Of a stretch of DNA of 64,000 bases, positions 3,263 to 57,685 are shown one piece after another. Under the pieces are notes generated by a model. The model did not search any database, was not told the origin of the DNA, and saw only the letters and a list, made by a program, of their open reading frames with translations. This DNA comes from an uncultured bacterium (GTDB taxonomy: Bacteria > CSSED10-310 > CAZUFC01), in contig CAZUFC010000008.1 in the NCBI GenBank assembly GCA_964619725.1, positions 1 through 64,000 on the forward strand, written 5' to 3'. Made by a program: the position numbers and the translations under genes. Position 1 is the first letter of the stretch. The number at the start of each line of letters is the position of its first letter.

Positions 3263-4612
3263 ATGGGCGGATCAAAAATATATAGTATAATTAAAAGAAA
3301 CGGAAAAGCCGTTCCGTTCAATAAGCAAAAAATAACTAATGCCATTTACAAGGCAGCTTATGCTGAAGGCGGTCATGATCGAAAACGGGCCGAAGACCTT
3401 TCGGACCAGGTTGTTAATTATTTGGAGAACCATTTCGATGAGAAGAACCCGCCCTCTGTGGAGCAGATACAGGATGCGGTCGAAAAGATTCTGATAGAGA
3501 ACGGACACGCAAGGACAGCCAAGGCTTTCATTATATACAGGAACGAGAGAACCAGGGAAAGGAAAGCCAGAGAGCGGGGCGAAAAAACCGTAACCTCTGA
3601 TTTCATTCCCTACCGGAAAATCTGGGAAACGCTCGATTGGAGCGTGGCTCACGGGCTCAGTACCATTGAGGGAATAAACAGGCGCGTTGAAAAGGGTGAA
3701 TTTTGCGATATCGTGAAGGAAAGCGATGAGCGTTACGAATGGGACATTGAGAAGGCAGCCGAAAGCATTCTAAACAGGAGAGAGAACGTGAGGCTTGTCA
3801 TCATCGCCGGCCCCTCTTCATCCGGCAAGACCACGACCACGCTGAAGCTGGCTCGACGTCTGAAGCGCAGCGGATTGAACCTGGTGGAAATGAATCTGGA
3901 CAATTATTTCTATGACCTGGAGCTGCATCCAAAAGACGAATACGGCGATTATGATTTCGAAACCCCGCAAGCGCTTGATATACCTTTAATCGATGAGCAT
4001 CTGGGGATGCTCCTGGAAGGAAAAACCATTTATGCTCCCCGTTATGATTTCAAGTCAGGCGTCAGGCGCGACGGTAAAACACCCTTTCGGCTGAATGAAG
4101 GAGACATCATTCTCATCGATTGTTTGCACGGTTTATATGAAAGTTTGACGGGAAGCGTCCCGAAAGAGGTGAAATTCAAGTTTTACATTGAGACGCTGGC
4201 CCAGATCAAAGACGACGCGGGCCATTACATACGATGGTCTGACACTAGGATGCTTCGCCGAATGTCCCGGGACGCGGAACATAGAAACCATCCTTATGTC
4301 AAGACGCTGGAGCACTGGCATTATGTTCGCAAAAGCGAGATGCGTCACATTATACCTTTTATTCATTCCGTGGATTACATTGCCAATGGATTCCTGGAAT
4401 ACGAGTTGCCTGTTTTCAAGGCGAGATTGGGCAAGACTTTCCGACAATTCGCTGAAAAGTATCGTTTGCGGAAGGATAAAAGGGATGCATTTAAGCGGGC
4501 GAGCAGGATAAACAGGATGCTGGAGCAATTCAAGGCCGTATCTGATACATCCTGCATTCCGGGCGATTCTCTTTTGCGGGAATTCATCGGCGGGAGCAGT
4601 TACAAGTATTAG
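3263..4612 (+). CDS. ATP-cone domain fused to a uridine kinase/phosphoribulokinase-like P-loop kinase
   Basis: N-terminal IIKRNG...KI..AI...VEQIQD.VEK.L...AKAFIIYR (ATP cone); P-loop GPSSSGKTT; LDNYF; RMLRRMSRD. Confidence 0.85.
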   Translation: MGGSKIYSIIKRNGKAVPFNKQKITNAIYKAAYAEGGHDRKRAEDLSDQVVNYLENHFDEKNPPSVEQIQDAVEKILIENGHARTAKAFIIYRNERTRERKARERGEKTVTSDFIPYRKIWETLDWSVAHGLSTIEGINRRVEKGEFCDIVKESDERYEWDIEKAAESILNRRENVRLVIIAGPSSSGKTTTTLKLARRLKRSGLNLVEMNLDNYFYDLELHPKDEYGDYDFETPQALDIPLIDEHLGMLLEGKTIYAPRYDFKSGVRRDGKTPFRLNEGDIILIDCLHGLYESLTGSVPKEVKFKFYIETLAQIKDDAGHYIRWSDTRMLRRMSRDAEHRNHPYVKTLEHWHYVRKSEMRHIIPFIHSVDYIANGFLEYELPVFKARLGKTFRQFAEKYRLRKDKRDAFKRASRINRMLEQFKAVSDTSCIPGDSLLREFIGGSSYKY

Positions 4613-39916: not shown

Positions 39917-40455
39917 CGCGCCGCAAAGGCGAATCCAATTTATCGAATCACGAGTCCCTTGTAAACTTAAAACAAAATTCTGAATAGTTTGATGAAGGAA
40001 ACCCGGGAATGAATCAAACGATTTTAATAAAGAAAAGTCCGCCCGCCTGCGGAATAAGAATCAGGAGAAGCGTTATTTCATATTTATGAATATGCAAGCA
40101 GCAAAATCGTTCGGAATACCGAGCGAAATTACTGTTAAATGCAATTTCGCCTGAATGAGAATAATGTATAAATTCAGAGATCGTTAAAAAGTGGTGAAAA
40201 AACAGTGGATTTTTTGGACGTTGGGTCATTTTATTAAACCTATTAAAATCATATAGTTAGACCAAAAAGAGATGATCAGACAATTCGCCGGCATTGACTA
40301 TCGTATTGAATTTAAATAGTTTTAAAATGTTTGTTTTTGCTCGGTTGTCCAATTTTAGAGATGCTGCTCAACTAATTGTATTTAAATGACTTTAAATTTT
40401 GACTTAACGAAGACTGAAATTCGACAACGAAAAAATATTTAAAGTTTTTTCGACA

Positions 40456-40734
40456 ATGATCAATAATGCGTCTTTGGGGATTAAAATTCTTTAGAATATC
40501 CCATCATTCAGAACCCGATCCCGATCCTGATTATCGATCCCGATTACCGAAACAAACCGTAAAACGTTTTGAAAGAAGTGCAGCCCCGGCATGGCCAGTC
40601 CCAAAATTCCGTTTCTTTTCAAAGACGGTTATTCTTCAGATGCCGGTTTTTACTTGTAAAAATGATTTTACGTACCAGCCGTCCCTTACGTCCCTTAGGT
40701 CCCTTAGGTCCCTTGGTCCCTTAGTCCCTTAGTC
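40456..40734 (+). repeat. Full copy of the composite dispersed repeat (unique 5' block, cgatcc hexamers, conserved core, gtccctta tandem tract)
   Basis: Reverse-complement match to 42338-42610 and 49447-49720. Confidence 0.85.
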
Positions 40735-42288: not shown

Positions 42289-42772
42289 ATCATGGACGAT
42301 TATGGTGGGGTTGCATTGGGTATGGGTTTTATTACAAAAGGGACCAAGGGACCAAGGGACGTAAGGGACCCAAGGGACCTAAAGGACGTAAGGGACTAAT
42401 GGAATATTGAATCATTTTTAGAAGTAAAGACCTGCATCTGAAAATTAACCGTCTTAAAAAAGAAACGGAATTTCGGGACTGATCAAACCGGACTTGCACT
42501 TCTTGCAAAACTTTTGACGGTTTGTTCCAGTAATCGGGGTCGGTATCGCAATCGCTGATGGTATATTCTGTCGAATTAACCTACAAAGATGCATTTTTGA
42601 TCAATGCCCGCATTTCGTTTAATCCTTTTGAAGGGCGCTTAATCGTCCGGGTTATTGTTTTACTGCGCTCCTTCAGAGCTCGGAGTTTTTATGATCCGGA
42701 CCCAGGGTTGCGCTCCGCTCCGCTTCGCTTAACCCTGGGCTTTCGTACTTCGCTCCTTCGGAGCTTCAGAAA
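42289..42772 (-). repeat. About 480-bp repeat, copy A (composite repeat plus REP-like triple hairpin)
   Basis: Near-identical direct copy at 49398-49880. Confidence 0.92.
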
Positions 42773-42818
42773 TATCGGCTAACATAATATTATCGGAGGA
42801 GGAAAAGTTGATTCGCTA

Positions 42819-44224: not shown

Positions 44225-44303
44225 GGCATGAGGATGTAACCTGTCAGTAGTGTGTTGCAAGATTTATTTTTCGGATACGATTTTCGTTGAAAAGATTTCG
44301 ATA

Positions 44304-44443
44304 GCGCTTTATCGTCCGGCTTATTGTTTTACTGCGCTCCTTCAGAGCTCGGAGTTTTTATGATCCGGACCCAGGGTTGCGCTCCGCTCCGCTTCGCTTA
44401 ACCCTGGGCTTTCGTAAATCGCTCCTTCGGAGCTTCAGAAATA
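44304..44443. repeat. REP-like triple-hairpin element (third copy)
   Basis: cccagggtt...aaccctggg stem flanked by gctccttc(a/g)gagc hairpins; matches 42636-42772 and 49745-49880. Confidence 0.85.
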
Positions 44444-45003: not shown

Positions 45004-48000
45004 ATGGATTGCAAACAAACATTTCCGGGCAATAATCCGATGGAACCAATAAAAGCATACCGAATCCGCATCCCCGCCGAACGAGGCAAACTGGTTGAAT
45101 GTTCATTATACGGCGGTCCGGCTGAACACTGGCGATATATGAAAAGCGCCGGGGCATTCGATTCCGGGTCGTATGAATCCGCTTTGTCTGAAGCTTTAGA
45201 CGGCGTGAAGGATGGTGAGAACAGACTGCTTTTGAGTATCGGTCATCCGGACGCAGAGACCCGGGTCCTTTACAGCCGGGAATTGATAGCCGATTTGTGG
45301 AGGGCTGACCGGGGATTGGGTCCTTATCCTTTGCTTGAGTTGTTGGGCGATTATGAACGTGACGGCGTTTATTATTATAAATACCGGGAGCATCTGGCTC
45401 ATCAGGTCCGCGTCTGGCTGCTGGGATTGTATCTTCTGCACCGGGTGGACGTTATTCGCTGGGCTCTTCTGAAAGAGATAAAAGAGGATTTGAACAGGGG
45501 TGAAGCCCTGACCAAACTACAGTTAAATTCGGAAATGCTGCGGCGATGGAAGATTGCAGCTTTATGGCATGATATCGGGTATGTATTTGAAGTGCAGAAT
45601 TCCGGAGAAGCTGCAGAATTGATTAAAAAGAGTCTCAATGCGCTTAATAATACTTATTCTGCACCCATATCAGAGCTGACGGCCGGAAATTCATGCGGAA
45701 TTTCGCTGGAACTGGAAAGGGAGATTCAAAACCAGGCTGAATATGGATTCCCATCCTGGAAATATTTGAGCAACTTCGATGCGCTGGTTTCGGGTCGTCA
45801 TCGTAAACTTTGGTCCAAATTTAAACGGGAAGGTTCCGGGGCATGCCTGGTCGGAGATGCCGATCCGTCAGGCGGATTAAAGGTTTATTTTGAGATGTGT
45901 CGAAATAAGTCCTTCAGTAAAACGGCCGGAATGCGACCCGGGTTCATCGATCACGGAATAGCCGGCGCTTTGACGCTTCTGCGTATCCATGAATTCATGC
46001 AGCATTATGTTAAGGCTCTTCATGAATTCCTGATGGAGGAACCGGAGCTGAGCGACGAAAATCAAAAGAAGGAAGCAGAAGGGATACTGCAGGCGACAAA
46101 CAGCGCCGTCAAAACAGTGAGGGCTGCCGCTGGAGCGATAGCGCTGCACAATATCCATCCGGGTTTGCCTGAACCGAATACTGCTGCGACCGTGGGGCTG
46201 ACCCTGAATAAATATAAAATCCGCCTGACGGAAAAAAACGATCGTCCCGGCACGGCTCTGGCTTACCTGCTGGGCCTCTCGGACGGACTGCAGGAATGGG
46301 ACCGGCCGCATTTCAGACTGGTGCGGGATAAACGTGACCTGACGCTGATCGACCAGCATATTGAAGTCACCGCGGATGACCGTGCGGTTTACCTTCAGTA
46401 CTTCACGGGTGACGATTCGTTCGACGATTATAAAAAAGCGCGGGAAAACCTGGGACAATACCTGGACCGCATCAGAGGCGATAACGCCCTGCTTCGAGAG
46501 GGAAGAATTGAACGTCTGGCGAACGACCTGCCGGAAGAGGCGCAGCCTGCCGCGGTTGCGCGTCTGGACGATTACGACCTCGAACCATACCTGAAAATCA
46601 TCCTGCGCGAATGCGGAACCATAACCCTCCGGGGAATCATGGCCGCGGGAAAATCGCGTGAGGCGCTGGAAATACCTATCCAGGATATTTATGCTCCTTT
46701 GCGGATAGAAGGCGGCGGCACGGATGAACAGATGTGGCGGCTCATAGCGGGTGTGAAAGATGACGTGAGAGAACACAAGGGCCGGACTGAATTGATGCGG
46801 ACGGCGGAACCAATTGAAGATGAAGGCGGAGACGATGATGATAATGATACGAAACGCCAGGGATTGTTGCTCATCGGCGATCCGGATTCCGGCAAGAGCA
46901 CCTTTTTACGCCTGACGGCCGCAGTGATCGCCCGTGCCTTAATGAAAAAAACAGGCGCAGAGGAACACCCCGCAGTAAAAATCTTAAGCGGCGATAACGA
47001 CAAGCTCCCGCTGCCGCTTTACCTTCGCCTTTCCGAATTCGTTACCTTCATGCGGGATAATCAGGGAATCGCCGTTCCCGGAAGCCCCGGATGGTTGGAG
47101 GAATATTTACGTCAATGGCATGAGCAATTCGGTTCGGGAATAGCCTGGGAAGCTTTCAGGAAAAAAATGGAAGAGGGCGGCGTTCTCCTTCTGCTGGACG
47201 GACTGGATGAGATACCCGGCTCTGTAGAAAGACAAAAGGCGGCAGCAGCGCTGAAATCGGCCCTGTCGGAAAATAAATATGGAAAATGCCGCGTATGCAT
47301 CGCCAGCCGTCCGATGAATGAATATGATCTCGATCTGCCGCTCGCATCAAGGAAACTTGACGGGTTGAGCGACCGCGCCATAGAGGAATTTTTGAAATGC
47401 TGGGGTTCCAAAGTTACGCTGGATGAAGCCGGACGTTTCACGACCCCCGAAGAATACACGGAGGACCTCATGGGAGCGGCTAAAAAAGCCGACGTCGCCA
47501 TCCGGCGAATGCTGCGGAATCCGCTGATGCTGACCTGCCTGGCCGTCATACACTGGAATGAACGGCGTCTGCCGCAGCAACGGGCTGAGCTGTTCGATGC
47601 CGTCATCGCCTGGTTGTTGCGTGCCCGCAGACCCATAGAGGCCGGAATGCCGCAGTTGAGCGAACATGAAGCGCGACGAGCGTATCAACTGCTGGCGATA
47701 GCCATGCAGATGCATCCCGGCGGCAGAATACGTGAAATAGACCTGGTTGAAGCTGCTGAGAAAATCGCTGAATGTTTCAAAGGTGATAACGATGAGATTA
47801 AGCGTTTCAAAGCATGCCGTTTTCTTGAAGCAGAGGTCATCAATACAGGCATAGTCACCATGAGAGGCGATAAGCGGATATCGTTCTGGCACCTGTCGTT
47901 CCAGGAATTTCTGGCTGCGGATTATCTGTGCGAAGCTCCTGATAAAATGTGGAAAGAAATATTAAACCAAAAACGTCTATTCGAAAGGGAACAGCGCGAA

Positions 48001-49068
48001 GTCGTTCTACTCCTGGGCGGTCTGATGAAAGGGGGACCCAGAACAAACGAATTGCTGAGACATATCCTCCAGACCCCAAAAAGTGGAAAACTCGCTGATA
48101 AAGCCCGGGAATACGGATTGGCCGGAGCGGTGATCGAGGACGTCAAACCCTACGGTTTCAAACCCGATGCGAAACTCGACATTGAAGGATTGAAACAGGA
48201 TGTTATGCAAATTTTTACCGTCGAAGCCGCCGGCATCCCATTAAAAACAAGGGTTGAAGCTGCTGAAGCCCTCGGTCAGACCGGCGATCCGAGACTCAAG
48301 GAAGATAACTGGGTTGAGATCGAAGAAGGAGGGTTCTGGATGGCGAAATACCCGGTCACGGTGCAGGAATATGAAGCATTCGTGGAAGACGGCGGTTACG
48401 ATCCGGACGGATTCGGGAAAAAATGGCTGCCGGAATGGAAAAAGGCCTTTGATCAATTTCTGGCGTATGAAAAACTGAGAGAAAGATATTCATGGATAAA
48501 GGATGACGATTTTCAAAGACAAAAGCCCCATGATTGGGAAAAACAACTGCTTTATTACAACCGCCCCGTTGTTGATATTACCTGGTTTGAAGCCATGGCT
48601 TATTGTCGGTGGTTTACGGAAAAACAGAAGGACGGATGGAAATACACTCTTCCTGACGAAAAACAATGGGAAAAAGCGGCGATGGGAAAGAAAGGCCGGG
48701 GCCGTTATCCCTGGGGGGACGATCCTCCGGGTGAGGGCGATCAGGCCAGGGCGAACTATGACGGCGCCGGTATAGGCCATCCGTCGCCTGTCGGTCTGTT
48801 TCCGACCGGAACCTCCAAATGGGGCGAAAAAGGAGAATTATTCGATATGTCGGGAAACGTCTGGGAATGGTGTGTCGACACATTGTCAGAAAGTGGCTAC
48901 AAGTCTGTCGGCGGTTCTTACCGGCCGTTGCGGGGCGGCTCGTATTGGAACGACGCCGACAACGTTGAGGTGCGTAACCGTAACAGGAACGTCGCCGTAA
49001 ATCGTAACGACAACAACGGTTTTCGTCTTTGCTGCGTATCCGTCCCCGCCCAACACGCAAAACGATGA
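45004..49068 (+). CDS. HD-domain + NACHT NTPase + FGE-sulfatase (CLec-fold) protein; probable DGR target
   Basis: HD motifs EHLAHQ, WHDIGY, DHG, ALHN and LSD.LQEWDR; Walker A GDPDSGKST; Walker B LLLLDGLDE; NPLML; FWHLSFQEFLAA; FGE motifs KYPVT, PVV.ITWFEA.AYC.W, LPDEKQWEKAA, DMSGNVWEW and RGGS...GFR. Confidence 0.9.
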   Translation: MDCKQTFPGNNPMEPIKAYRIRIPAERGKLVECSLYGGPAEHWRYMKSAGAFDSGSYESALSEALDGVKDGENRLLLSIGHPDAETRVLYSRELIADLWRADRGLGPYPLLELLGDYERDGVYYYKYREHLAHQVRVWLLGLYLLHRVDVIRWALLKEIKEDLNRGEALTKLQLNSEMLRRWKIAALWHDIGYVFEVQNSGEAAELIKKSLNALNNTYSAPISELTAGNSCGISLELEREIQNQAEYGFPSWKYLSNFDALVSGRHRKLWSKFKREGSGACLVGDADPSGGLKVYFEMCRNKSFSKTAGMRPGFIDHGIAGALTLLRIHEFMQHYVKALHEFLMEEPELSDENQKKEAEGILQATNSAVKTVRAAAGAIALHNIHPGLPEPNTAATVGLTLNKYKIRLTEKNDRPGTALAYLLGLSDGLQEWDRPHFRLVRDKRDLTLIDQHIEVTADDRAVYLQYFTGDDSFDDYKKARENLGQYLDRIRGDNALLREGRIERLANDLPEEAQPAAVARLDDYDLEPYLKIILRECGTITLRGIMAAGKSREALEIPIQDIYAPLRIEGGGTDEQMWRLIAGVKDDVREHKGRTELMRTAEPIEDEGGDDDDNDTKRQGLLLIGDPDSGKSTFLRLTAAVIARALMKKTGAEEHPAVKILSGDNDKLPLPLYLRLSEFVTFMRDNQGIAVPGSPGWLEEYLRQWHEQFGSGIAWEAFRKKMEEGGVLLLLDGLDEIPGSVERQKAAAALKSALSENKYGKCRVCIASRPMNEYDLDLPLASRKLDGLSDRAIEEFLKCWGSKVTLDEAGRFTTPEEYTEDLMGAAKKADVAIRRMLRNPLMLTCLAVIHWNERRLPQQRAELFDAVIAWLLRARRPIEAGMPQLSEHEARRAYQLLAIAMQMHPGGRIREIDLVEAAEKIAECFKGDNDEIKRFKACRFLEAEVINTGIVTMRGDKRISFWHLSFQEFLAADYLCEAPDKMWKEILNQKRLFEREQREVVLLLGGLMKGGPRTNELLRHILQTPKSGKLADKAREYGLAGAVIEDVKPYGFKPDAKLDIEGLKQDVMQIFTVEAAGIPLKTRVEAAEALGQTGDPRLKEDNWVEIEEGGFWMAKYPVTVQEYEAFVEDGGYDPDGFGKKWLPEWKKAFDQFLAYEKLRERYSWIKDDDFQRQKPHDWEKQLLYYNRPVVDITWFEAMAYCRWFTEKQKDGWKYTLPDEKQWEKAAMGKKGRGRYPWGDDPPGEGDQARANYDGAGIGHPSPVGLFPTGTSKWGEKGELFDMSGNVWEWCVDTLSESGYKSVGGSYRPLRGGSYWNDADNVEVRNRNRNVAVNRNDNNGFRLCCVSVPAQHAKR
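48916..49060 (+). repeat. DGR template-repeat-like segment, in frame at the 3' end of the NACHT-CLec gene
   Basis: Nine AAY codons (8 AAC, 1 AAT) among the 23 codons at 48949-49017, at the variable positions of the RGGS..GFR motif; about 140 nt upstream of an RT start. Confidence 0.7.
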
Positions 49069-49136
49069 TTGAAACGTTAATCGATTTTCCGTGCAGGCTG
49101 CGTCCTGGCCGGGTTATTGTCCGGTTAAAGCATTAC

Positions 49137-49181
49137 AGCCTGTCCGTTCCGGTAGGAAATATCCGAACGTCCGGACAGGCT
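49137..49181 (+). other. Stem-loop in the TR-RT spacer
   Basis: 10-bp stem agcctgtccg/cggacaggct enclosing ggtagg...ccgaac. Confidence 0.65.
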
Positions 49182-49199
49182 TTTCCATTATTGTAACAA

Positions 49200-49406
49200 G
49201 TGAAGACGTTCAATAACATTTTTGAAAAAATCGTCGCTTTTGAAAATATATGGAACGCCTGGAGGAAGGCCAGGAGGAGAAAAAGACGCACGCATCCTGC
49301 TGCATTATTCGAATTTAATGCTGAACATAACATTGAAAGAATCCGTCGCCGGTTGAAAAATGGAACTTACAGGCCGGATCGCTACAGGATGATTAAGATC
49401 ATGGAC
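49200..49406 (+). pseudogene. N-terminal fragment (about 67 aa) of a DGR-type reverse transcriptase, truncated by the repeat
   Basis: MKTFNNIFEKIVAFENIWNAWRKARRRKR....LFEFNAEHNI..I...L.NGTYRPDRYR matches the DGR RT N-terminal pattern. The sequence switches into repeat copy B at about 49398, and no YxDD core is present. Confidence 0.8.
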
Positions 49407-49880
49407 GATTATGGTGGGATTGCATTGGGTATGGGTTTTATTACAAAAGGGACCAAGGGACCAAGGGACGTAAGGGACCCAAGGGACCTAAAGGACGTAA
49501 GGGACTAATGGAATATTGAATCATTTTTAGAAGTAAAGACCTGCATCTGAAAATTAACCGTCTTAAAAAAGAAACGGAATTTCGGGACTGATCAAACCGG
49601 ACTTGCACCTTGCAAAACTTTTGACGGTTTGTTCCAGTAATCGGTATCGCAATCGCAATCGAAATGATGGGGTATTCTGTCGAATTAACCTCAAAAGATG
49701 CATTTTTGATCAATGCCCGCATTTCGTTTAACCGTTTTGAAGGGCGCTTCATCGTTCGGTTCTTTGTTTTACGGCGCTCCTTCAGAGCTTTAATTTTTAT
49801 GATCCTGACCCAGGGTTGCGCTCCGCTTCGCTTCGCTTAACCCTGGGCTTTCGTACTTCGATCCTTCGGAGCTTAAGAAA
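49398..49880 (-). repeat. About 480-bp repeat, copy B
   Basis: Near-identical to 42289-42772. Confidence 0.92.
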
Positions 49881-50183
49881 AGTAAGTAAAGAACATTTTC
49901 GGATGAAGAATTTTCACACAACCGATTAATTTTGCCTGATGAATAATATTGCAACCGTAGAACATTTCCGAAAAACCAGGCTTTTATGTTATAGCGATAG
50001 GCGAAGCGGGCCGGCTGTTTCCTGGATGTTGGTTTACCAGCAAAAGCTTGCATGCTGGGGATTTCATGAAGGGGCTAACCCAGTCATTGAATAAGTTTAC
50101 ATTTTTTGCAAAGTTGGGGCGCTTGCGTTATTGTAAAAAGATGAGATGGTCCTTATGATTGATCCTATTTTCCGAATCCAACC

Positions 50184-50437
50184 GAATGGTTTTTAGTACG
50201 GATGAAAGGAAGCCATCGACAGTCAAGCATCCCGATAAAAAAGGTCTGATTAGCGGGGAAATCAGGTGAAGACCTGGCGCCGGGAACACTGAACAGTATT
50301 TTGAAACAAGCGTGATTGAAAAGAAGAAATATTTGATTGTGGTTGAAAAAACAGAAAAAGGTTATTCAGCGTTCTGTACGGATTTGGATGGATGCGTTGC
50401 TGCCGGACAAACGCAAGAAGAAGTCGAAAGTTTAATG
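50184..50437 (+). pseudogene. hicAB: Decayed HicA-HicB toxin-antitoxin pair
   Basis: Frameshifted HicA pieces WFLVRMKGSHRQ, KHPDKKG and GEDLAPGTLNSILKQA; HicB N-terminus KYLIVVEKTEKGYSAFCTDLDGCVAAGQTQEEV, cut at a repeat. Confidence 0.8.
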
Positions 50438-50490
50438 GGCATTGATCAAAAATGCGTCTTTTGAGGTTACAATTCTTCAGGATACCCCAA
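50437..50490 (+). repeat. 5' block of the composite repeat
   Basis: gggcattgatcaaaaatgcgtcttttgaggtta is the near-exact reverse complement of the block at about 49686-49718. Confidence 0.75.
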
Positions 50491-50550
50491 CATTTATAAT
50501 GGACCTAAGAATAGTGATGTTTGCGTTGTGACTATAAGAAAAACAACCCC

Positions 50551-50606
50551 CCGATTCGCTAATGCTGAGCCTTCGACTTCGTCTTGTCTCAGCATAAGCG
50601 TATCGG
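50551..50606. repeat. Long imperfect palindrome downstream of brnA (REP-like or terminator)
   Basis: ccgattcgctaatgctgag pairs with ctcagcataagcgtatcgg. Confidence 0.55.
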
Positions 50607-50707
50607 TCCCCCCTTTGGTAAGCTCACTTTTATACACGCTTGACACAATAGAGGAATGATTTTCACTTTACACTTCAAATACAATTAGTATCAGATTTTA
50701 GTTCTGC

Positions 50708-51004
50708 TTACGCGGCATCACCTCTTTTAAATTCATTTAGTTCCTTCTGAATACGCTCGGCGATATATATTTTCAGCAAAGACTGATAAGGAACATCCCG
50801 TTTATTCGCCAGAAGCTTCAAATGCTCAATAACGCTTTCAGGCAAACGGATGGATATCGTTTTGGTCGACGGTTTCAATTTCGCCAGGGTCAAAGAGTCA
50901 GCTTTTTTCCAATCAATATATTCAGTTGAATCATGGGTTGCCCAGAATTCATTTTCTTCATTTTCATCTTTAAATTCAGGGATTCTCTTTTTGTTCATTT
51001 TCAA
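50708..51004 (-). CDS. BrnA/CopG-family antitoxin
   Basis: IPEFKDE.EE.EFW.THDST.Y; C-terminal RHH TISIRLP....LK.LA.KR.VPYQSL.K. Confidence 0.88.
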   Translation of the reverse strand: MKMNKKRIPEFKDENEENEFWATHDSTEYIDWKKADSLTLAKLKPSTKTISIRLPESVIEHLKLLANKRDVPYQSLLKIYIAERIQKELNEFKRGDAA

Positions 51005-51299
51005 AAACCTTTCGTTCTTTATTGCTCATGTCTCTGGCAGAGATGATCCGAATAAAATCATTTCTGACAGTGAATACAATAAATAATCTTCTCCCCAAGT
51101 CCGTCTCTCCTAATAAGTAATATCTCTTTTCCGTGACGGAATGGGAAATATCATGGGCCACTATCATGGGCTGATTGAAAAAAACCTGCTCCGATTCAGT
51201 TCGGGACACCTGATGCTTTTCCCAATTTTTTGTCGCATTACCCGCATCCCATTCAAATCCTTTGCAATTTTTTAATAAATCCATCAGACCACTCGACAA
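50976..51299 (-). CDS. brnT: BrnT-family toxin
   Basis: FEWDAGN..KN.EKH.V...E.E.VF, E.RY..LG and RIISARDM..KER; the likely start is 51284. Confidence 0.9.
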   Translation of the reverse strand: MSSGLMDLLKNCKGFEWDAGNATKNWEKHQVSRTESEQVFFNQPMIVAHDISHSVTEKRYYLLGETDLGRRLFIVFTVRNDFIRIISARDMSNKERKVFENEQKENP

Positions 51300-51328
51300 A
51301 TCAGTATACTATGATCATATACAAATGT

Positions 51329-52040
51329 CAAGCGCTGCAAAAATTTTTCGGAGTTGCATCGCTTTATAATGTTAAAAAGGTGTAAAGGTATGCTGCTGCA
51401 TTCCGATGCGGAAAGAGTAAAAAGGAAAGATCGCCGGAAGCTGTGGCTGCATGGCTTCAACTGGGGGAATTGAAAGCCAGGGTGATTAATTGCAGGGATT
51501 TCAGTAAGAAGCGGATAATAGCTTCGTTGGAAGAAATCAGACAAATGACCGTTCAATCTCCGTAAGATTTTTTACCCGGTTTGACTTCGCTTCTCGCTGA
51601 TTGCGGAATAGCTTTCACATTATGTCCTCATTTTCCGAAAACTTACGTGAACGGAGCGGTATTTCGATTGGGCCGAAACAGGATAGTAATAATGATGACT
51701 TTAAGAGGGAAATGGGCTGACATTTTCTGGTTCAGTTTATTTCGTGAGCCTGAGCATGTTGTTTTGCATGACCGCCGGGCCGTAATAGTCGAATGCGAAG
51801 AAGGAAACCTGGAAAGCGATAAAGATGGAAGATGATGCGAACGATTTTGCCGCTGATGCGCTTGTTCCGCCTGATAATTGGTTCGTATTTATCCGAAGGA
51901 AATCGTTCGGGAAGACAACGATAGAAAAGTTCGCAGCAGATATTGGAATCGCTCCGGGCATTATCGTGGGCCGCCTGCAGCACGAGGGATACCTTAAGCA
52001 TCACTGGAACGACGATTTACGGATTCGTTATGTTTGGTAA
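51329..52040 (+). pseudogene. HigA-type antitoxin / ImmA-IrrE (M78) metallopeptidase remnant
   Basis: FFGVAS...AAWL..GE, NGA....RGKWADIFWFSLF, E..AN.FAA..L.P and PGIIVGRLQHEG; two in-frame stops, a frameshift, and HExxH degraded to REPEH. Confidence 0.8.
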
Positions 52041-52190: not shown

Positions 52191-52282
52191 GGGGACTGAT
52201 CAAAGGGGGTTACACTTCTTTCAAAATTTTCGACGGTTTGTTTCAGTAATCGGGTTCGGGGTCGGTATCGGGATCGAAATGG
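52191..52282 (-). repeat. Partial composite repeat at the 5' junction of the beta-helix gene
   Basis: gggactgatcaaa...gacggtttgtttcagtaatcggg..ggtatcgggatcgaaatg matches 42475-42555 and 49584-49667. Confidence 0.8.
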
Positions 52283-52345
52283 AAGCGAAATAATTGTTCC
52301 AACGGCAATTCATACGAGGAGATACAATATAATTTCACGGGCAAT

Positions 52346-55300
52346 ATGGTGAACGACAATCAAAGCGGAGGCGTTTACGTTCGCACGGGCGACAGTTCGG
52401 AGGAAATATCCGTACTGATGCAAAATGAGATTGTAGAGGGCAATGTTGCGGACGGCATCAACGTTCGATTCAGCTCTTATTCATCAATTACGTCTATGGT
52501 TTTACAGAACGTTGCGTCTTATGACAATGCGGGAGCGGGTGCGGAAATTCATTATGACAACAGTCAGACGGCGGCGGCCCTGGAAATAGAATCATGTGAT
52601 TTTTACGGAAACACGGGAAGAGGATTATATGTTTACGGAGATGGAATAATTTCTTCTTCGGTTTTTTCGAGCTGCACATTTTATGCGAACGGAAATGACG
52701 GATGTCGAATTTTCACGCCGGCAGAAATATTATTTCTGGACAACTCAGCGCATGACAATTTGAATCACGGCATCAGCATAAAACCGACTGCCGGGGCTTC
52801 TGTAGAAATACGGGGCAATGAGTCGTACGGCAACGCGGAGGACGGCATTTACTGTGAGAACTCTGACGCTCTGTTTATTTACAACAGCGTGCATGAAAAC
52901 GGGAGCAGCGGGATCAATTTTAATGACAGGACAGGGCATTTCATTCAGAACGATATTTTCACGAACGGCTTCTGCGGAGTGAGGTTCAACGCCGGTGACG
53001 GCGTGCAGGTCGTTAATGGTAATAATATATATGATAATTTGGAATATGAGATTTACAACAATACGCTTTATGCTGTCGATGCCAGGAACAATTATTGGGG
53101 AACAGCGACGACGGAAGCGATGAACACTCAGGGGTATACTGCCGACCTGGAAACTGTATATGACATCCATGACGATTTGCTTCTCGGCATGGTAGACTAC
53201 CGGGGTTGGAATGGGGATTTACTGGATACTTCGACTGATCCGGTTTCTTATATTGTAGTTCCCCTGGAAGGCATGACGTTGCCCCGGGGCAATTTTACGA
53301 TTGAGGGAGTAGCGTGCGCTTCGGCCGGCATAGCCCTGGTGGAAGCTTATAAAGACGGTGGCTGGGAGGAAGCCTCAGGGACGGTCGACTGGACCATAGA
53401 TTGGTTTGCGGGCGTATCAGGTCCTGCTACGGTTAACTCCAGGGCCGAGGATAGTGATTCCAACGTGGAGACGCCTGGTCCGGGAATCAACGTGGACGTG
53501 GATGTTTCCATGAATCACGCCAGGGGAGAACTTTACGCGGATGAAACCTGGAGCGGCGACGTATATGTTACCGGAGACGTCATAGTGCCTGAAGGCATCA
53601 CGTTGACCGTGCTTCCGGGATCAACGGTGAATTTCCTCCGTAACCGGGACGATACGCTCAGCGGTTTGGATACGTCGCGTTCTGAGTTGATCGTAAGAGG
53701 CGTTTTAATAGCTGACGGAGACCCGGAAAGCATTATCAGGTTTACGAGTGAGGAGGTTTACAAGCGCGACTGGTATGGAATAAGGTTCGACGATGCGAAT
53801 GATGAGCTTTGCGTGCTTGATCATTGCGAGATCAAGTATGCGCATGCAGGGATCAGCCTGGAAAGCGCTTCCGTGCCGATTACTAACTGTCTTGTCGCTG
53901 AATGCTGGTATCGCGGCATTACCGGCGAATCATCGGGAGGGGATATAATCCTCCGGAACAACGAGATTCTCAACAACGGTACAAGCAGCGAGGGCGACGG
54001 GGTAAACATCAAATGTAAATCATCCATTTCGGTATTGCTGGAGAATACAGAAATTCACGGCGCTTTCGCGACCGGAATACATTTTTACAATGAAGCGGAA
54101 ACAACGAATATTGATTATACGGTTATGGACAATAATATTCATGACAACGGCGAGCACGGCCTGAGCATCATCGCGGGTTCACGTTCGACAAACATTGATA
54201 TTCAAGTTCAAAATGAGGTTCATTATAATAATGTCGAGGACGGCTTCAACATAAGGATTAATTCTCAATCGTCCGGTACGGCGGTAAGTTTTGAGAACGT
54301 CGATGTTTACGACAACGACGGCGACGGAATAGAGGTGTTTTTCAACGAATTGGAAACATATTCGGGGATTGAGATGGCCGATTGCGAAGTTTATCGAAAC
54401 GAAGGGAGCGGCATTTGGATACGAGTGTCGGGAGAGCTTGATGAAGCTTTGGTTCATGAATGTTTATCGTATGAAAACGGCGGAGCGGGTTGCAGCATAG
54501 GAAAGACGGATATTTTAACGGTGAGGAACAACGAGATCAGGGATAACGGCGGCGACGGGTTATGGGTGAGAATAACGGATACGGGAAGCGTTATAGACGA
54601 TAATTACATCCGTGAGAATGCGGGAAGGGGAATACATTGTGAAGATGGAAATGCGATGTTCAAGTATAACACCGTCAGGAAAAACGGTTCTTATGGGATA
54701 GAGTTCGAGCGGGGATTCGGCACATTTTTGCAGAACAACATATACATGAATCAGAGCTGCGGATTACTGTTAAGCGACTGCGCATCCATTAACGAGATAC
54801 ATTACAACAATATATTCAGAAACGCCACGTATGAAATTTACAATAATTCGCCGCGTGCTGCGGACGCCAGGCTAAACTGGTGGGGCGACGTAGCGACCGC
54901 CCAGATGGACTCGCAGGGATATTCCGTGGATATCGAAGTGATTTACGATATTCATGATGATTTCACTCTGGGCATGGTGGATTACCGTGGTTGGTTCGTC
55001 CGTCCGTCAGACATTTCAAAGGACCCGGGTTCTCATATAACCGATCCCATGGACGGCATGACGATACCTGCCGGTCCGATAAATATTGTGGGAACGGCGG
55101 TTTCGTCAGCGGGTCTGGACCATGTGGATGTCAGCACGGACGGCGGGAACGTCTGGAACCCGGGAACAGGAACGGCACATTGGCATTATCCGTGGAATGC
55201 TGATACTGAAGGCACGTATAATATTCGTTCGTGTGCGTATGACGCTGAGTTGAATGCGGAATTTCCAATCGATGAGGGGATATTCGTCGATGTTGAGCCA

Positions 55301-57685
55301 GGTTTGCTTCATACGTGGGGAACCATTTACGAGGATGAGACATGGAGTGAGAGCATTGTGATAATGGGGGACGTCGTGGTTCCGGCCGGGGTAACGCTGA
55401 CTGTAATGCCCGGAACGACGGTGGTTTTTGCAGCAGAGCGGGACGACACGATGAGCGGCTTTGATGATTCCCGTTGCGAACTTATTGTGCAGGGGGCTTT
55501 AAATGCTGACGGCGATTCTGAAAATGAGATACTCTTCACCGTCGATTCGCTGGTTCCCGTCAGCAAGGACTGGTATGGAATACGTTTCGTTAATCCTGAC
55601 GCTTCATTCTGCGTCATGGACCATTGCAGCATCCAATGGGCCCATGCGGGCATATCCCTGGAATCGGCTTCTATCGACATAACGAACTGCAGTATTTCCG
55701 AATCTTTTTATCGGGGAATAACCGGAGCGACTTATGGAACGGGAATGTCGCTTCAGGACTGTCGAATATTCGACAACGGTCATGACGACGAAGGCGACGG
55801 CGTTAATATAAGATGCGGTTCATTCAACTCTCTGACTGTAAGCGAGAATGAATTTTTCGACAATTTCAACTGCGGAATTCACTGCTGGAGCGGTTCCGAA
55901 ACGTCGAACATTGATTACCTGTTCGTTAATAATCTAGCTTACGGCAACGGAGCAAGCGGCTTCAGCGTAAAAGCGGGCGTCGAATCAATGCATATTTCCT
56001 CGACATTTCAGAATGAGACTTGCTATGGCAATGCGCAGGACGGCATTCATGTCGAGTATTCGGGAGGAGCTGCGGATACGGAAGTCATCCTGGATAACGT
56101 CGTTACTTACGATAATGAAGGCGACGGCGTAGAGATACGTTCCAATGATCTTGACGGTCCGTCAGTTGTCGAATGCGTTGATTGCGATGCGCATGGCAAC
56201 GGAGGCATGGGCATCCGGTCGAATGTAACCGGAAGCATCTCCAGCCTGGGTATTGCCGATTGTGTGATTCATGAAAACGAAGGAGGGGGTTGTTCCCCGG
56301 GAATGTCGATTCAGGCTTCGATCAGCGGCATGAACATTTATGACAATAACGGCGAAGGACTGTGGATAAGGGGCGGCAATGCGGAGTTAACCGAAAACGA
56401 TGTATCGAACAACAGCGGAACGGGCATCCATTGTCAAGGCGGCGCTGTTCAGGGTTTCTGCAATGTGATGACGTTCAACGGCGGAGACGGCTTTCAATTG
56501 CAGAACGGAAGCGCTGTCTTCCATTACAACGATATAAACTGGAATGAAGGATACGGCGTCAGGTTTACTGATTCGGGAGCCGGTTCTAATTTCGATCACA
56601 ATAACATCTACACTAACGGCGATTATGAATTTTATAATAACTCGAACGAAGATGTTTCCGCCCAGTACTGCTGGTGGGGAAACACGGTCACCGGTGAAAT
56701 GAATGAACTGGGGTATCCCGCGGATATAACCCGGATATACGACGTACACGAAAATTCTTCCCTGGGAGAAGTCATTTACGATAACTGGCTCGACGGACAC
56801 GTGCCCACTGTAACGCCGACGCCGGGACCGACCTTTACGCCCGGTCCCCCGACTTATACTCCGACTGCAGGACCATCGCCCACGCCGCCGGTGTTTTCTC
56901 CAACTCCGCCCTTTACTCCCACTGTAACGCCGCTTTGCCTTAACGACGGAGACGTCGACCAGAACGGCAAACTGACTCCCCAGGATGCTCAGTTTGCTTT
57001 CTTTATTTATCTGGGTGTTATCGATCCCACTTACATAGAATTATGCTCCGCTGATTGTCTCGGTGAGGGCGAAGTCACTCCTGACGATGCTCAATGCATT
57101 TTACAGCATTATCTGGATATGGGCTGCGATTGCGCAGACCCTATAGCGATGCCGCCATATCCGAACCGAAAACAGAACACCGGCAAGCAAAAATGTCCGC
57201 TTGAAAGGCATATCCCCCGACATGCTCAGAATAATGCTCGTTCACACTTGTCGAAATCTGACCGGGCGCCGGCCGCTGTGGACCGGGAAAAAACCGGCGT
57301 CATCATCATCGAGCGGAAACGGGACGCACAGTCGGGATATTTAACCCTACGCATCAGTATGGAAAATTATCGTAATGAAGCGGATGCTTTTGGGTTTCGA
57401 TTGAATTTCCCGCAGAACCTGCTTACGCCGGTCAACATGCAGTTCGGCGAAAAAATTGCCGATTGGAGGGCTGTTGCCGCGAATCATGAACCGGGCAGTA
57501 TAATTTTCGGCGCTTTTGATACGGAAAAGGCTTTGCCTGCGGATTCTCAGAGCATGATAGCGGATGTCGAATTCATGATAAAGGGAATCGGCGAGACGGC
57601 CGGAATAGAAATAAGAGTCGTTGATCTAGTGGATGATATAGAAGATTACGAAATTTACGTTAACGATATGATTTTCAATGAATAA
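52346..57685 (+). CDS. Giant right-handed beta-helix repeat protein with Ig-like spacers, PT linker, dockerin-like and cohesin-like domains (5'-truncated)
   Basis: N..YxN...GI beta-helix repeats; repeated DETWS..DWYGIRF modules; GDVDQNGKLTPQDAQ..DCLGEGEVTPDDAQ (dockerin-like); AFGFRLNF..IFGAFD (cohesin-like); no signal peptide. Confidence 0.8.
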   Translation: MVNDNQSGGVYVRTGDSSEEISVLMQNEIVEGNVADGINVRFSSYSSITSMVLQNVASYDNAGAGAEIHYDNSQTAAALEIESCDFYGNTGRGLYVYGDGIISSSVFSSCTFYANGNDGCRIFTPAEILFLDNSAHDNLNHGISIKPTAGASVEIRGNESYGNAEDGIYCENSDALFIYNSVHENGSSGINFNDRTGHFIQNDIFTNGFCGVRFNAGDGVQVVNGNNIYDNLEYEIYNNTLYAVDARNNYWGTATTEAMNTQGYTADLETVYDIHDDLLLGMVDYRGWNGDLLDTSTDPVSYIVVPLEGMTLPRGNFTIEGVACASAGIALVEAYKDGGWEEASGTVDWTIDWFAGVSGPATVNSRAEDSDSNVETPGPGINVDVDVSMNHARGELYADETWSGDVYVTGDVIVPEGITLTVLPGSTVNFLRNRDDTLSGLDTSRSELIVRGVLIADGDPESIIRFTSEEVYKRDWYGIRFDDANDELCVLDHCEIKYAHAGISLESASVPITNCLVAECWYRGITGESSGGDIILRNNEILNNGTSSEGDGVNIKCKSSISVLLENTEIHGAFATGIHFYNEAETTNIDYTVMDNNIHDNGEHGLSIIAGSRSTNIDIQVQNEVHYNNVEDGFNIRINSQSSGTAVSFENVDVYDNDGDGIEVFFNELETYSGIEMADCEVYRNEGSGIWIRVSGELDEALVHECLSYENGGAGCSIGKTDILTVRNNEIRDNGGDGLWVRITDTGSVIDDNYIRENAGRGIHCEDGNAMFKYNTVRKNGSYGIEFERGFGTFLQNNIYMNQSCGLLLSDCASINEIHYNNIFRNATYEIYNNSPRAADARLNWWGDVATAQMDSQGYSVDIEVIYDIHDDFTLGMVDYRGWFVRPSDISKDPGSHITDPMDGMTIPAGPINIVGTAVSSAGLDHVDVSTDGGNVWNPGTGTAHWHYPWNADTEGTYNIRSCAYDAELNAEFPIDEGIFVDVEPGLLHTWGTIYEDETWSESIVIMGDVVVPAGVTLTVMPGTTVVFAAERDDTMSGFDDSRCELIVQGALNADGDSENEILFTVDSLVPVSKDWYGIRFVNPDASFCVMDHCSIQWAHAGISLESASIDITNCSISESFYRGITGATYGTGMSLQDCRIFDNGHDDEGDGVNIRCGSFNSLTVSENEFFDNFNCGIHCWSGSETSNIDYLFVNNLAYGNGASGFSVKAGVESMHISSTFQNETCYGNAQDGIHVEYSGGAADTEVILDNVVTYDNEGDGVEIRSNDLDGPSVVECVDCDAHGNGGMGIRSNVTGSISSLGIADCVIHENEGGGCSPGMSIQASISGMNIYDNNGEGLWIRGGNAELTENDVSNNSGTGIHCQGGAVQGFCNVMTFNGGDGFQLQNGSAVFHYNDINWNEGYGVRFTDSGAGSNFDHNNIYTNGDYEFYNNSNEDVSAQYCWWGNTVTGEMNELGYPADITRIYDVHENSSLGEVIYDNWLDGHVPTVTPTPGPTFTPGPPTYTPTAGPSPTPPVFSPTPPFTPTVTPLCLNDGDVDQNGKLTPQDAQFAFFIYLGVIDPTYIELCSADCLGEGEVTPDDAQCILQHYLDMGCDCADPIAMPPYPNRKQNTGKQKCPLERHIPRHAQNNARSHLSKSDRAPAAVDREKTGVIIIERKRDAQSGYLTLRISMENYRNEADAFGFRLNFPQNLLTPVNMQFGEKIADWRAVAANHEPGSIIFGAFDTEKALPADSQSMIADVEFMIKGIGETAGIEIRVVDLVDDIEDYEIYVNDMIFNE

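What the first reader, a model, noticed from the sequence alone, without database searches (positions are those of the whole stretch)
48916..49406. DGR locus in which the template-repeat-like sequence is the in-frame C-terminus of the target gene, followed by a broken RT
Seen in sequence: the CLec gene ends in W-NDADNVEVRNRNRNVAVNRNDNN-GFR with 9 of 23 codons AAY, then a 10-bp hairpin, then a DGR-type RT N-terminus. There is no separate VR/TR pair and no avd in the window. Established: DGR TRs carry AAY at diversified positions and lie beside the RT, whereas VRs have these adenines mutated, and FGE/CLec folds are common targets. Inference: (a) VR-TR recombination deleted the intervening avd region (the TAC just before RPLRGGS could be a residual VR-type codon), (b) the assembly collapsed VR and TR, or (c) this is an unusual layout where the target mRNA is also the template RNA, possibly serving remote VRs with an RT supplied in trans.
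Basis: partly seen in the sequence, partly recalled or inferred. Interest (0 to 1): 0.85.

Follow-up and report, generated by a model that had tools for sequence, protein, structure and literature searches.

The report
Broken DGR with target-template fusion
This is a decayed copy of a bacterial targeted-hypermutation cassette (a DGR): the sensor gene now ends in the unmutated template copy, the helper gene is gone and the reverse transcriptase is cut off after 66 codons, so the sensor is probably frozen.

Summary
The 1354-aa NACHT/FGE-sulfatase gene (45004-49068) ends in a 23-codon stretch with 9 AAY codons. A conserved hairpin follows, then a 66-codon N-terminal stub of a DGR-type reverse transcriptase (RT) at 49200-49397.

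Two complete DGRs in the same genome (contigs C26, C9) show that this Asn-rich state is the template (TR) state. Their TRs encode 8-9 Asn and two C26 variable repeats (VRs) encode 0-1. The 143 nt between the AAY stretch and the stub match a covariance model of TR-to-RT spacers from 13 complete cassettes (67.2 bits, E 2.5e-14).

So the target gene is joined in frame to a real TR. No cognate VR, no avd and no rest of the RT were found.

Best reading: VR x TR homologous recombination deleted the accessory genes. A second deletion, ending inside a dispersed repeat, cut the RT.

Contigs from two or three runs of one study carry the same junctions, so assembly collapse is unlikely. Nothing supports a working in-gene template.

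Degenerate DGR loci are already in print (PMC10907252). Earlier notes of this scan describe decayed DGRs on other DNA, none with this target-TR fusion. Interest is modest.

The parts
45004..49068 (+). DGR target gene, 1354 aa: N-terminal region with a weak HD-domain hit, NACHT NTPase, helical/HEAT-like part, C-terminal FGE-sulfatase (C-type-lectin-fold) domain
   Evidence: ORF. Pfam FGE-sulfatase E 1e-36, aa 1096-1342, profile positions 22-253 of 255 without a break. NACHT scores 29.7 bits against a cut-off of 26.7 when the middle part is scanned alone; HD E 0.0069, below its cut-off.
47179..47409 (+). NACHT match (aa 726-802)
48289..49029 (+). FGE-sulfatase domain match (aa 1096-1342), running without interruption into the TR-state segment
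48912..49047 (+). Template-repeat (TR)-state segment that forms the 3' end of the target ORF; the VR x TR crossover would lie at or before about 48912-48948
   Evidence: nhmmer hit 48912-49035, E 1.1e-26, to the TR/VR family profile. 74% identity to the free-standing TR on C29 and 76% to the TR of C26. Alignments.
48949..49017 (+). 23 codons with 9 AAY (Asn): the adenine-rich positions that a DGR would mutate, all in the unmutated template state
   Evidence: 9 Asn here, 9, 9 and 8 in the TRs of C26, C29 and C9, and 1 and 0 in the two VRs of C26.
49052..49058 (+). AACACGC, a TR-side end motif that lies inside the last codons of the ORF
   Evidence: The TRs of C26 and C9 read GAACACGC here and the VRs of C26 read GAGCACGG. 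ACACGC heads 8 of 13 aligned TR-to-RT spacers. Coordinates.
49066..49068 (+). TGA stop codon of the fused ORF, supplied by TR-side flanking sequence
49060..49202 (+). Conserved TR-to-RT spacer RNA element of this DGR clade (CGTGCAGG box and long hairpin)
   Evidence: Covariance model R1, built from 13 spacers of complete cassettes without the window, gives 67.2 bits, E 2.5e-14, full-length match to positions 1-135. Three-way alignment.
49137..49181 (+). Hairpin of the spacer: 10-bp outer stem and inner pairs
   Evidence: for coordinates. RNAalifold on four loci of this genome predicts 21 pairs, 8 of them with compensatory changes.
49200..49397 (+). N-terminal stub (66 codons, GTG start) of a DGR-type reverse transcriptase
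49398..49910 (.). Cluster of dispersed repeat modules that replaces the rest of the RT; the junction at 49398 lies inside the repeat consensus
   Evidence: 651 HSPs genome-wide; 92% identity to 42289-42804. The first 211 nt differ at 1 position from 42289-42499. Other copies continue about 50 nt further left than 49398.

Best explanation
This is the remnant of a diversity-generating retroelement of the kind that diversifies STAND-NTPase/FGE-lectin sensor proteins. The ancestral layout, as in the two complete cassettes of the same genome, was target gene with a C-terminal VR, then an HTH-like accessory gene, avd, TR, a structured spacer and the RT. Homologous recombination between the directly repeated VR and TR, with the crossover in the identical stretch 5' of the first variable adenine, removed the VR, the accessory gene and avd. 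In 11 of 13 comparable cassettes that interval is about 1.1-1.4 kb. The event joined the target gene in frame to the TR. The sensor therefore now carries the all-Asn template ('ground') state of its binding site and ends in TR-side flanking sequence. A separate deletion runs from RT codon 66 to a point inside a dispersed repeat and removed the rest of the RT. With no RT, no Avd, no VR and a TR-type rather than VR-type 3' boundary, the locus can no longer diversify; the sensor gene itself remains an intact ORF. Shown: the TR identity of the segment, its contiguity with both the target ORF and the spacer and RT stub, the absence of partner parts, and the position of the RT break. Inferred: the recombination mechanism, the order of the two events, and the loss of function.
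For: TR state: 9 Asn codons here, as in the TRs of C26 (9), C29 (9) and C9 (8), against 1 and 0 in the C26 VRs. The control cassettes behave canonically. C26 TR against its VRs has 19 and 18 of 31 adenines changed and 0 of 106 other positions; C9 has 8 and 13 of 22 adenines changed, and 3 of 98 and 2 of 106 other positions. TR position: the sequence downstream (49060-49202) is the conserved TR-to-RT spacer (R1: 67.2 bits, E 2.5e-14; alignment; 8 of 21 pairs compensatory). The end motif AACACGC is the TR version, not the VR version. Precise, homology-type join: the FGE-sulfatase match runs unbroken through the junction (profile positions 22-253 of 255), and the 23-codon variable block has the same length as in the C26 targets. 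Normal layout elsewhere: 11 of 18 analysed public cassettes with related RTs have a free TR within 300 nt of the RT and separate VRs with adenine-biased mismatches. In none of 14 other TRs (11 public, plus C26, C9 and C29) does the open frame through the TR start more than about 470 nt upstream, against 3954 nt here. Parallel decay in the same genome: C29 has a pseudo-avd, a free TR (the closest relative of this one) and the spacer, followed directly by repeats with no RT. C27, C207 and C226 hold RT fragments. Missing parts. The junctions are real in contigs of other runs. TR-VR homologous recombination without RT activity has been seen in an engineered system (10.1101/2025.03.24.644984, passage read). 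Degenerate DGR loci with repeat arrays in place of the RT are described for Thiohalocapsa (10.1101/2023.09.22.558884 section 7 and PMC10907252 passages).
Against: No intact ancestral or orthologous locus could be found: 0 of 40 related genomes match and the best metagenome relatives are 35-36% identical. The deletion is therefore inferred, not seen. The crossover cannot be placed more exactly than about 48912-48948. An ectopic exchange with the TR of another cassette would give the same product. The AAY codons, the hairpin and the 66-codon stub are all undecayed. That fits a recent event but equally fits selection on a still-used element. The assembly is about 91% complete in 344 contigs, so a VR, an RT or an avd in the unassembled part cannot be excluded. 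The read evidence consists of contigs, which cannot show depth or rare adenine variants.
Confidence: 0.7

Rival explanations
1. Module shuffling rather than an intra-cassette deletion. A TR-spacer-RT module from another cassette was joined to this target by ectopic recombination or duplication, with its TR pairing with this gene's VR or FGE 3' end. The avd region was then never deleted from this locus as such.
For: The genome holds at least two complete cassettes and several fragments of DGRs, and hundreds of dispersed repeats that could drive rearrangements. Recombination of target C-termini with different N-terminal domains is proposed for Thiohalocapsa (PMC10907252, passage). The N-terminal part of this target differs from those of the C26 targets.
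Against: The product is identical to that of a simple direct-repeat deletion, which needs one event and no second locus. No reciprocal product (avd followed by a hybrid repeat and VR-side flank) was seen; the C29 remnant has TR-side flank.
Confidence: 0.15
2. A working, unusual layout. The 3' end of the target mRNA (TR plus spacer) serves as the template RNA for an RT-Avd pair supplied in trans, for example by C26 or C9, and feeds remote VRs or the gene itself.
For: The spacer element and hairpin are intact and score nearly as a full member of the family. All AAY codons are preserved. Complete RT and avd genes exist elsewhere in the genome. Trans use of DGR parts is argued for Thiohalocapsa (PMC10907252, passage).
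Against: No cognate VR exists in the assembly: the best match at non-adenine positions is 71 of 105, whereas true pairs in C26 match 106 of 106. Self-homing would erase the adenines, yet all remain. The 3' boundary is of the TR type. The sequence is identical in contigs of a second run (X2). The stub is only about 32-33% identical to the C9 and C26 RTs, so the cassette lineages are distant. None of 14 other TRs is in frame with a target.
Confidence: 0.07
3. Assembly artefact: VR and TR were collapsed, or the contig is chimeric at the repeat next to the RT stub.
For: A 211-nt repeat with a single mismatch lies at the RT break. The genome is a repeat-rich, 344-contig metagenome bin.
Against: An independent k-mer assembly of run X1 spans 47800-49642 in one 4583-nt contig. 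Run X2 spans 48837-49280 and run X3 spans 49324-49449. All three have 0 differing letters. X1 may be the source sample and all runs are from one study. The stub/repeat junction lies 5' of the near-exact repeat, so it must be present in reads. VR/TR pairs at 86-88% identity were kept apart in C26 and C9 by the same assembly. No orphan avd contig with matching ends was found.
Confidence: 0.03
4. An ordinary VR that happens to be unmutated, for instance just reset, with its TR and RT elsewhere.
For: The segment is the C-terminus of an intact target gene, where VRs lie.
Against: It is followed directly by the TR-side end motif, the TR-to-RT spacer and an RT start, not by VR-side flank and accessory genes. 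No other copy exists in the assembly.
Confidence: 0.03

Closest known systems
DGR cassettes that diversify STAND-NTPase (NACHT/nSTAND) plus C-type-lectin/FGE sensors, often with two target genes ('clade 5D' of Dore et al., PNAS 2024, PMC10907252; passages read)
   Same: The target architecture is the same (NTPase plus a C-terminal FGE/CLec domain with the diversified block before GFR). So are the TR sequence family, the TR-to-RT spacer and the type of RT N-terminus. The complete cassettes C26 and C9 of this genome and 11 public cassettes show this layout.
   Different: Here there is no separate VR, no accessory gene or avd, no second target and only 66 codons of RT. The TR is the 3' end of the target ORF.
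'Degenerate' DGR loci of Thiohalocapsa sp. PB-PSB1, where arrays of MITE-like repeats replace the RT or the TR (10.1101/2023.09.22.558884 section 7; PMC10907252 passages)
   Same: A multi-DGR, repeat-rich, large genome from a microbial-mat-type community. Key machinery is missing and repeat arrays sit where the RT should be.
   Different: In the passages and section I read, those loci keep a VR and lose the RT or TR; a target fused to the TR is not mentioned. Their supplementary figures (S3, S4) were not available to me and might show such a case. Whether the repeats here are MITEs was not tested.
Bordetella phage BPP-1 DGR (mtd-avd-TR-brt), the prototype. The roles of the VR-side and TR-side end motifs and of the TR-brt spacer are recalled; the abstracts of PMC3240598 and PMC6182149 were seen only in search listings.
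   Same: The logic of the parts is the same: an adenine-rich TR next to the RT, a spacer between them, and TR-specific versus VR-specific 3' ends.
   Different: Different target fold family and host. BPP-1 is intact and active, and this locus is a fusion remnant.

Membership tests
Functional diversity-generating retroelement | Full-length DGR-type reverse transcriptase (catalytic YxDD and the [ILV]GxxxSQ motif; the motif definition is recalled) | tested here: not met
   Only codons 1-66 remain. PF00078 gives no hit on contig C8. The frame runs into repeat sequence at 49398.
Functional diversity-generating retroelement | A TR/VR pair that differs at adenines of the TR | tested here: not met
   There is one family member on C8. 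The best adenine-masked match elsewhere is 71 of 105 positions, against 106 of 106 in the C26 controls. The assembly is about 91% complete.
Functional diversity-generating retroelement | Accessory gene (avd) in the cassette | tested here: not met
   PF05635 gives 8 hits in the genome, none on C8. tblastn with the C26 avd and its 214-aa neighbour finds nothing on C8.
Functional diversity-generating retroelement | Target protein with a C-type-lectin/FGE fold and a C-terminal diversified block | tested here: met
   FGE-sulfatase E 1e-36. The block aligns with the VRs of the C26 targets.
Functional diversity-generating retroelement | TR immediately upstream of the RT, separated by a conserved spacer | tested here: met
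   Model R1 hits 49060-49202 at E 2.5e-14. The RT start is at 49200.
Degenerate DGR locus (remnant) | Recognisable DGR parts with key machinery missing or pseudogenised, and repeat arrays at the breaks | tested here: met
   The C29 remnant is a second case in the same genome.
Group II intron or retron RT (the alternative identity of the stub) | Best similarity to group II or retron RTs rather than DGR RTs | tested here: not met
   tblastn hits the DGR-type RTs on C9, C280, C26 and C226, plus C78 weakly (E 0.009), which lacks the DGR-type motif, but none of the three group II RTs C274, C247 and C66. 16 of 20 full-length relatives carry [ILVM]GxxxSQ. NCBIfam has no DGR model, and 10 of 10 relatives score far below the group II cut-off (82-153 bits against 300).

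The most novel reading that the evidence does not exclude
The fusion is not dead. The sensor mRNA, which carries the TR and an intact spacer hairpin at its 3' end, would double as a DGR template RNA for an RT-Avd pair made by another cassette. One gene would then encode both a 'naive' all-Asn receptor and the template from which diversified copies are made at a site not in the assembly.
Probability: 0.06. Interest if true: 0.7.

Novelty: new member of a known kind. Interest (0 to 1): 0.3.

Why it matters
It gives a clean natural example of one way a DGR can end. The VR and TR are direct repeats, so a single crossover can remove the helper genes and lock the receptor in the template-encoded, all-Asn ground state.

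That has three practical uses. DGR-finding pipelines that look for TR/VR pairs will miss or mislabel such loci. The fused gene shows what the undiversified form of a NACHT-lectin sensor looks like. The conserved TR-to-RT spacer element (model R1) is a handy marker for orphan TRs.

It also adds a second large, repeat-rich, mat-dwelling genome in which dispersed repeats sit where DGR parts have been lost, as reported for Thiohalocapsa.

Tried and rejected
- **Related genomes.** A DNA search of 40 related genomes found no match; the nearest are only 'same phylum'. No orthologous locus could be compared.
- **Word-index protein search.** A search with the stub for longer proteins scored nothing. 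It was replaced by the exhaustive HMMER search.
- **Metagenome loci.** 80 loci were found with the target's C-terminal half. The best is 35-36% identical, only 3 of 80 hold an RT hit, and most look like generic FGE proteins. They are not informative about layout.
- **Rfam.** On 48700-50000 the only hit was RF02956 at E 0.81, 18.2 bits against a gathering score of 81.3. This is treated as chance.
- **NCBIfam.** It has no DGR-RT model, so it could not name the relatives.
- **PADLOC.** The target matches 0 families.
- **Read laying.** All three runs are served as contigs, so doubled depth and rare adenine-only variants could not be tested. No differing letters were listed in 48900-49060.
- **Runs X2 and X3.** They cover only parts of the stretch; the gaps are not evidence.
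- **Is the RT C-terminal fragment on C27 the missing half of this RT?** Both pieces are close to the same public protein: P0038 is the C27 fragment's best match (48%) and the stub's second-best (43%). About 48 residues between them are missing from both, and no cognate VR lies there. Inconclusive.
- **Public cassettes.** Of 21 public RT loci, 3 (L118, L131, L132) were left out of the TR/VR analysis because the match lacks the RT N-terminus. 7 of the 18 analysed gave no adenine-biased pair.
- **Earlier notes of this scan.** There were none for this genome. Four notes on other DNA concern decayed DGRs.
- **Literature.** Searches for a natural VR-TR deletion or a target-TR fusion and the passages read gave no description of one. 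Supplements were not seen.
- Searches failed on my own input errors.
Full report
**What is there.** The window is the first 64 kb of contig C8 of a 9.17-Mb, 344-contig genome bin, about 91% complete.
- A 1354-aa ORF runs from 45004 to 49068 on the + strand.
- Pfam finds a C-terminal FGE-sulfatase domain (E 1e-36, aa 1096-1342) and a central NACHT NTPase.
- The N-terminal part gives only a weak HD-domain hit, below its cut-off.
- The ORF ends ...RGGSYW NDADNVEVRNRNRNVAVNRNDNN GFRLCCVSVPAQHAKR*.
- The 23 codons 48949-49017 hold 9 AAY codons. The background frequency is 0.028, and no other 23-codon window of the ORF holds more than 4. The binomial tail is 5.7e-9, or about 7.6e-6 after allowing for all windows.
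- A hairpin with a 10-bp outer stem lies at 49137-49146 / 49172-49181.
- A GTG-initiated frame starts at 49200.

**The RT stub.** The first 66 codons from 49200 match, N-terminus to N-terminus, the RTs on contigs C9, C280, C26 and C226 of the same genome (28-33% identity, E 1.8e-7 to 0.02). A weaker hit (E 0.009) is the RT on C78, which carries a group II-like motif rather than the DGR-type one. The stub does not match the three group II intron RTs on C274, C247 and C66.
- The RTs it matches on C9, C26, C280 and C226 carry IGNLTSQ. The group II RTs carry QGxxISP. That [ILV]GxxxSQ marks DGR RTs is my recollection, not a call result.
- An exhaustive HMMER search of 1.84 billion representatives gave 612 hits at E <= 0.001. 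Most of the 150 listed align at the protein's own start.
- Of the 20 listed proteins of at least 280 aa, 16 carry [ILVM]GxxxSQ.
- The stub's best PADLOC model (PDLC01136, E 1e-6, profile positions 2-62 of 263) is also the best model for the complete C26 RT (E 5.8e-36).
- NCBIfam has no DGR model. Ten of ten relatives score far below the group II cut-off.

**The AAY stretch is a template repeat.** The genome holds two complete DGRs that serve as internal standards.
- On C26 the order on the minus strand is: a 1008-aa NACHT-FGE target with VR1, a 214-aa accessory gene, a 110-aa avd, the TR (32574-32438), about 190 nt of spacer, the RT, and a second, convergent target with VR2.
- The C26 TR differs from VR1 at 19 of 31 adenines and from VR2 at 18 of 31, and at 0 of 106 other positions in both.
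- C9 has the same layout. Its TR differs from its two VRs at 8 and 13 of 22 adenines, and at 3 of 98 and 2 of 106 other positions.
- Translated, the TRs of C26, C9 and C29 encode 9, 8 and 9 Asn in the block before GFR. The two C26 VRs encode 1 and 0. The window's block encodes 9.
- At the 3' end the window reads AACACGC, like the TRs (GAACACGC) and unlike the C26 VRs (GAGCACGG).

**The TR sits in the TR's place.** The 143 nt between the AAY stretch and the RT start align with the TR-to-RT spacers of C26 and C9. They share a CGTGCAGG box and a long hairpin, CCGTTC...GAACGTCCGG. RNAalifold on the four copies in this genome predicts 21 pairs, 8 of them with compensatory changes.

I then fetched 21 public loci with related RTs from several phyla.
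- I analysed 18 of them. The other 3 lack the RT N-terminus.
- 11 of the 18 have a free TR within 300 nt of the RT and separate VRs with adenine-biased mismatches. Ten of these have two or more VRs.
- Their spacers, together with those of C26 and C9, align with 21 invariant columns.
- A covariance model built from these 13 spacers, without the window, finds window 49060-49202 at 67.2 bits, E 2.5e-14, as a full-length match.
- It also finds the C29 remnant at 51.9 bits. Nothing else in the 64 kb scores better than E 0.38.

The AAY stretch is thus a genuine TR, or is TR-derived. On its 3' side it is joined to spacer and RT, and on its 5' side it is joined in frame to the target gene.

**Missing parts.**
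- The nhmmer profile of the TR/VR family gives one hit on C8.
- A scan of both strands of the whole assembly, counting only the 105 non-adenine positions of 48916-49047, finds no site better than 71 of 105. That site is the TR on C29.
- There is no avd on C8 by Pfam or by tblastn with the C26 genes.
- There is no RVT_1 match on C8.

**How the RT was lost.** The stub stops at 49397. From 49398 to 49910 lie three modules of a dispersed repeat family with 651 HSPs genome-wide.
- In other copies the repeat consensus continues about 50 nt further to the left. The junction is therefore inside a repeat, not at an element end.
- This points to a deletion with one end in the RT and the other in a repeat, rather than a simple insertion. 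No RT remainder follows the repeats.
- The first 211 nt of this copy differ at a single position from the copy at 42289-42499, whereas the next best copy elsewhere is 83% identical. This suggests a recent event or gene conversion.
- The same genome shows parallel decay. C29 begins with a pseudo-avd, a free-standing TR (the closest relative of the window's, 74%) and the spacer. Repeats follow directly where the RT should start.
- C27, C207 and C226 hold RT fragments.

**Most likely history.** VR and TR are direct repeats at 86-88% identity, and their longest perfect stretch lies 5' of the first variable adenine. One crossover there deletes everything between them and gives exactly what is seen.
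- In 11 of 13 comparable cassettes that interval is about 1.1-1.4 kb holding the accessory gene and avd. This is my arithmetic.
- The predicted product is an all-TR block joined to the target without any change of register.
- The FGE match is unbroken through the junction.
- The variable block has the same 23-codon length as in the C26 targets.
- A random deletion would rarely achieve this.
- In none of 14 other TRs does the open frame through the TR reach back to a target gene. The fusion is an exception, not a layout of this clade.
- TR-VR homologous recombination independent of the RT has been reported in an engineered system (10.1101/2025.03.24.644984, passage).

I could not see the ancestral state. 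No close relative exists among the 40 genomes searched, and the metagenome relatives are at most 36% identical. The mechanism therefore remains inferred, and an ectopic exchange with another cassette's TR cannot be told apart from it.

**Assembly artefact?** Logan contigs of three runs of one study were laid on 47800-50300.
- Run X1, possibly the source sample, has one 4583-nt contig covering 47800-49642.
- Run X2 has a 444-nt contig covering 48837-49280.
- Run X3 has a 126-nt contig covering 49324-49449.
- All three have 0 differing letters.
- No variant is listed within 48900-49060.

Collapse is nevertheless unlikely. The same assembly kept comparably similar VR/TR pairs apart on C26 and C9.

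**A working in-gene template?** The intact hairpin, the preserved AAY codons and the presence of complete RT-avd pairs elsewhere keep this open. Several points count against it.
- There is no cognate VR in the assembly.
- The 3' boundary is of the TR type.
- Self-homing would have erased the adenines.
- The sequence is the same in a second run.
- The stub's lineage is distant from the complete RTs, at about 32-33% identity.

I give this about 6-7%.

**Comparison with what is known.** The cassette family is the one that diversifies STAND-NTPase/CLec sensors in multicellular or aggregate-forming bacteria (PMC10907252 and its preprint; passages and section 7 read). That work also describes 'degenerate' loci in which arrays of MITE-like repeats replace the RT or the TR, and possible use of parts in trans.
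- In what I read there, the degenerate loci keep a VR. A target fused to its TR is not mentioned.
- It is not mentioned in the passages I read of the survey PMC5758913 either.
- My four literature searches did not find one.
- The supplementary figures of the Thiohalocapsa paper, which I could not open, may bear on this.
- Earlier notes of this scan report decayed DGRs on other DNA, including an orphan TR fused in frame to a broken tnpB, but none fused to its own target. I did not test those notes.

**Verdict.** The locus is a decayed member of a known system with an unusually tidy VR x TR fusion. It is not a new kind of DGR.

Noticed in passing
window 40454-40734, 42289-42804, 44282-44441, 49398-49910, 52206-52294: A modular family of dispersed intergenic repeats: a GGGACC-type short tandem module, a CGATCCCGA-type module and a GC-rich palindromic module. 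A query of window 49300-50100 gives 651 HSPs at E <= 1e-5 across the genome. Copies sit at the breaks of DGR remnants in the window and on C29 and C27. Whether they are MITEs was not tested.
   Followed up: partly
window 49060-49202; L030 (C26) 4252-4438 minus strand; L031 (C9) 3740-3911; L115-L125 and L133 upstream of position 6001: A strongly conserved TR-to-RT spacer element (ACACGC, a CGTGCAGG box and a 9-bp hairpin with CCGTTC / CGTCCGG) is shared by DGR cassettes from several phyla. The 13-sequence alignment has 21 invariant columns. No Rfam family matched the window copy. It may be a useful marker of this DGR clade's template RNA.
   Followed up: partly
L032 (G000:C29) 1-820: A second DGR remnant: a frame-broken avd, a free-standing TR (about 481-626, 9 Asn codons) and the spacer element (691-818). 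Repeats follow directly where the RT should begin. The contig starts here, so the upstream target is unknown.
   Followed up: partly
L030 (G000:C26:28000-37000) and L031 (G000:C9:102000-110000): Two complete DGR cassettes, each with two NACHT-FGE target genes that flank the RT and converge on it. The mismatches are purely adenine-specific on C26 and almost purely so on C9. They look recently active.
   Followed up: yes
G000:C27:66920-67441; G000:C207:2-478; G000:C226:6430-7155; G000:C280:479-1812: Further DGR-type RT pieces: C-terminal fragments on C27 (preceded by repeats) and at the start of C207, a truncated RT with avd on C226, and a full RT with avd on the short contig C280. The public protein P0038 is the C27 fragment's best match and the window stub's second-best.
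   Followed up: partly
window 52346-57685 and onward to about 63300: Very large ORFs (one of 1779 aa) built of internally repeated units of about 1.8 kb with many N/D/G-rich short repeats (repeat families D1, D4, D8, D9). Not analysed.
   Followed up: no
window 50312-52040: A run of small ORFs on both strands between the repeats and the large repeat protein. By eye their translations resemble toxin-antitoxin-type small proteins. This is a recollection only and no family search was run.
   Followed up: no
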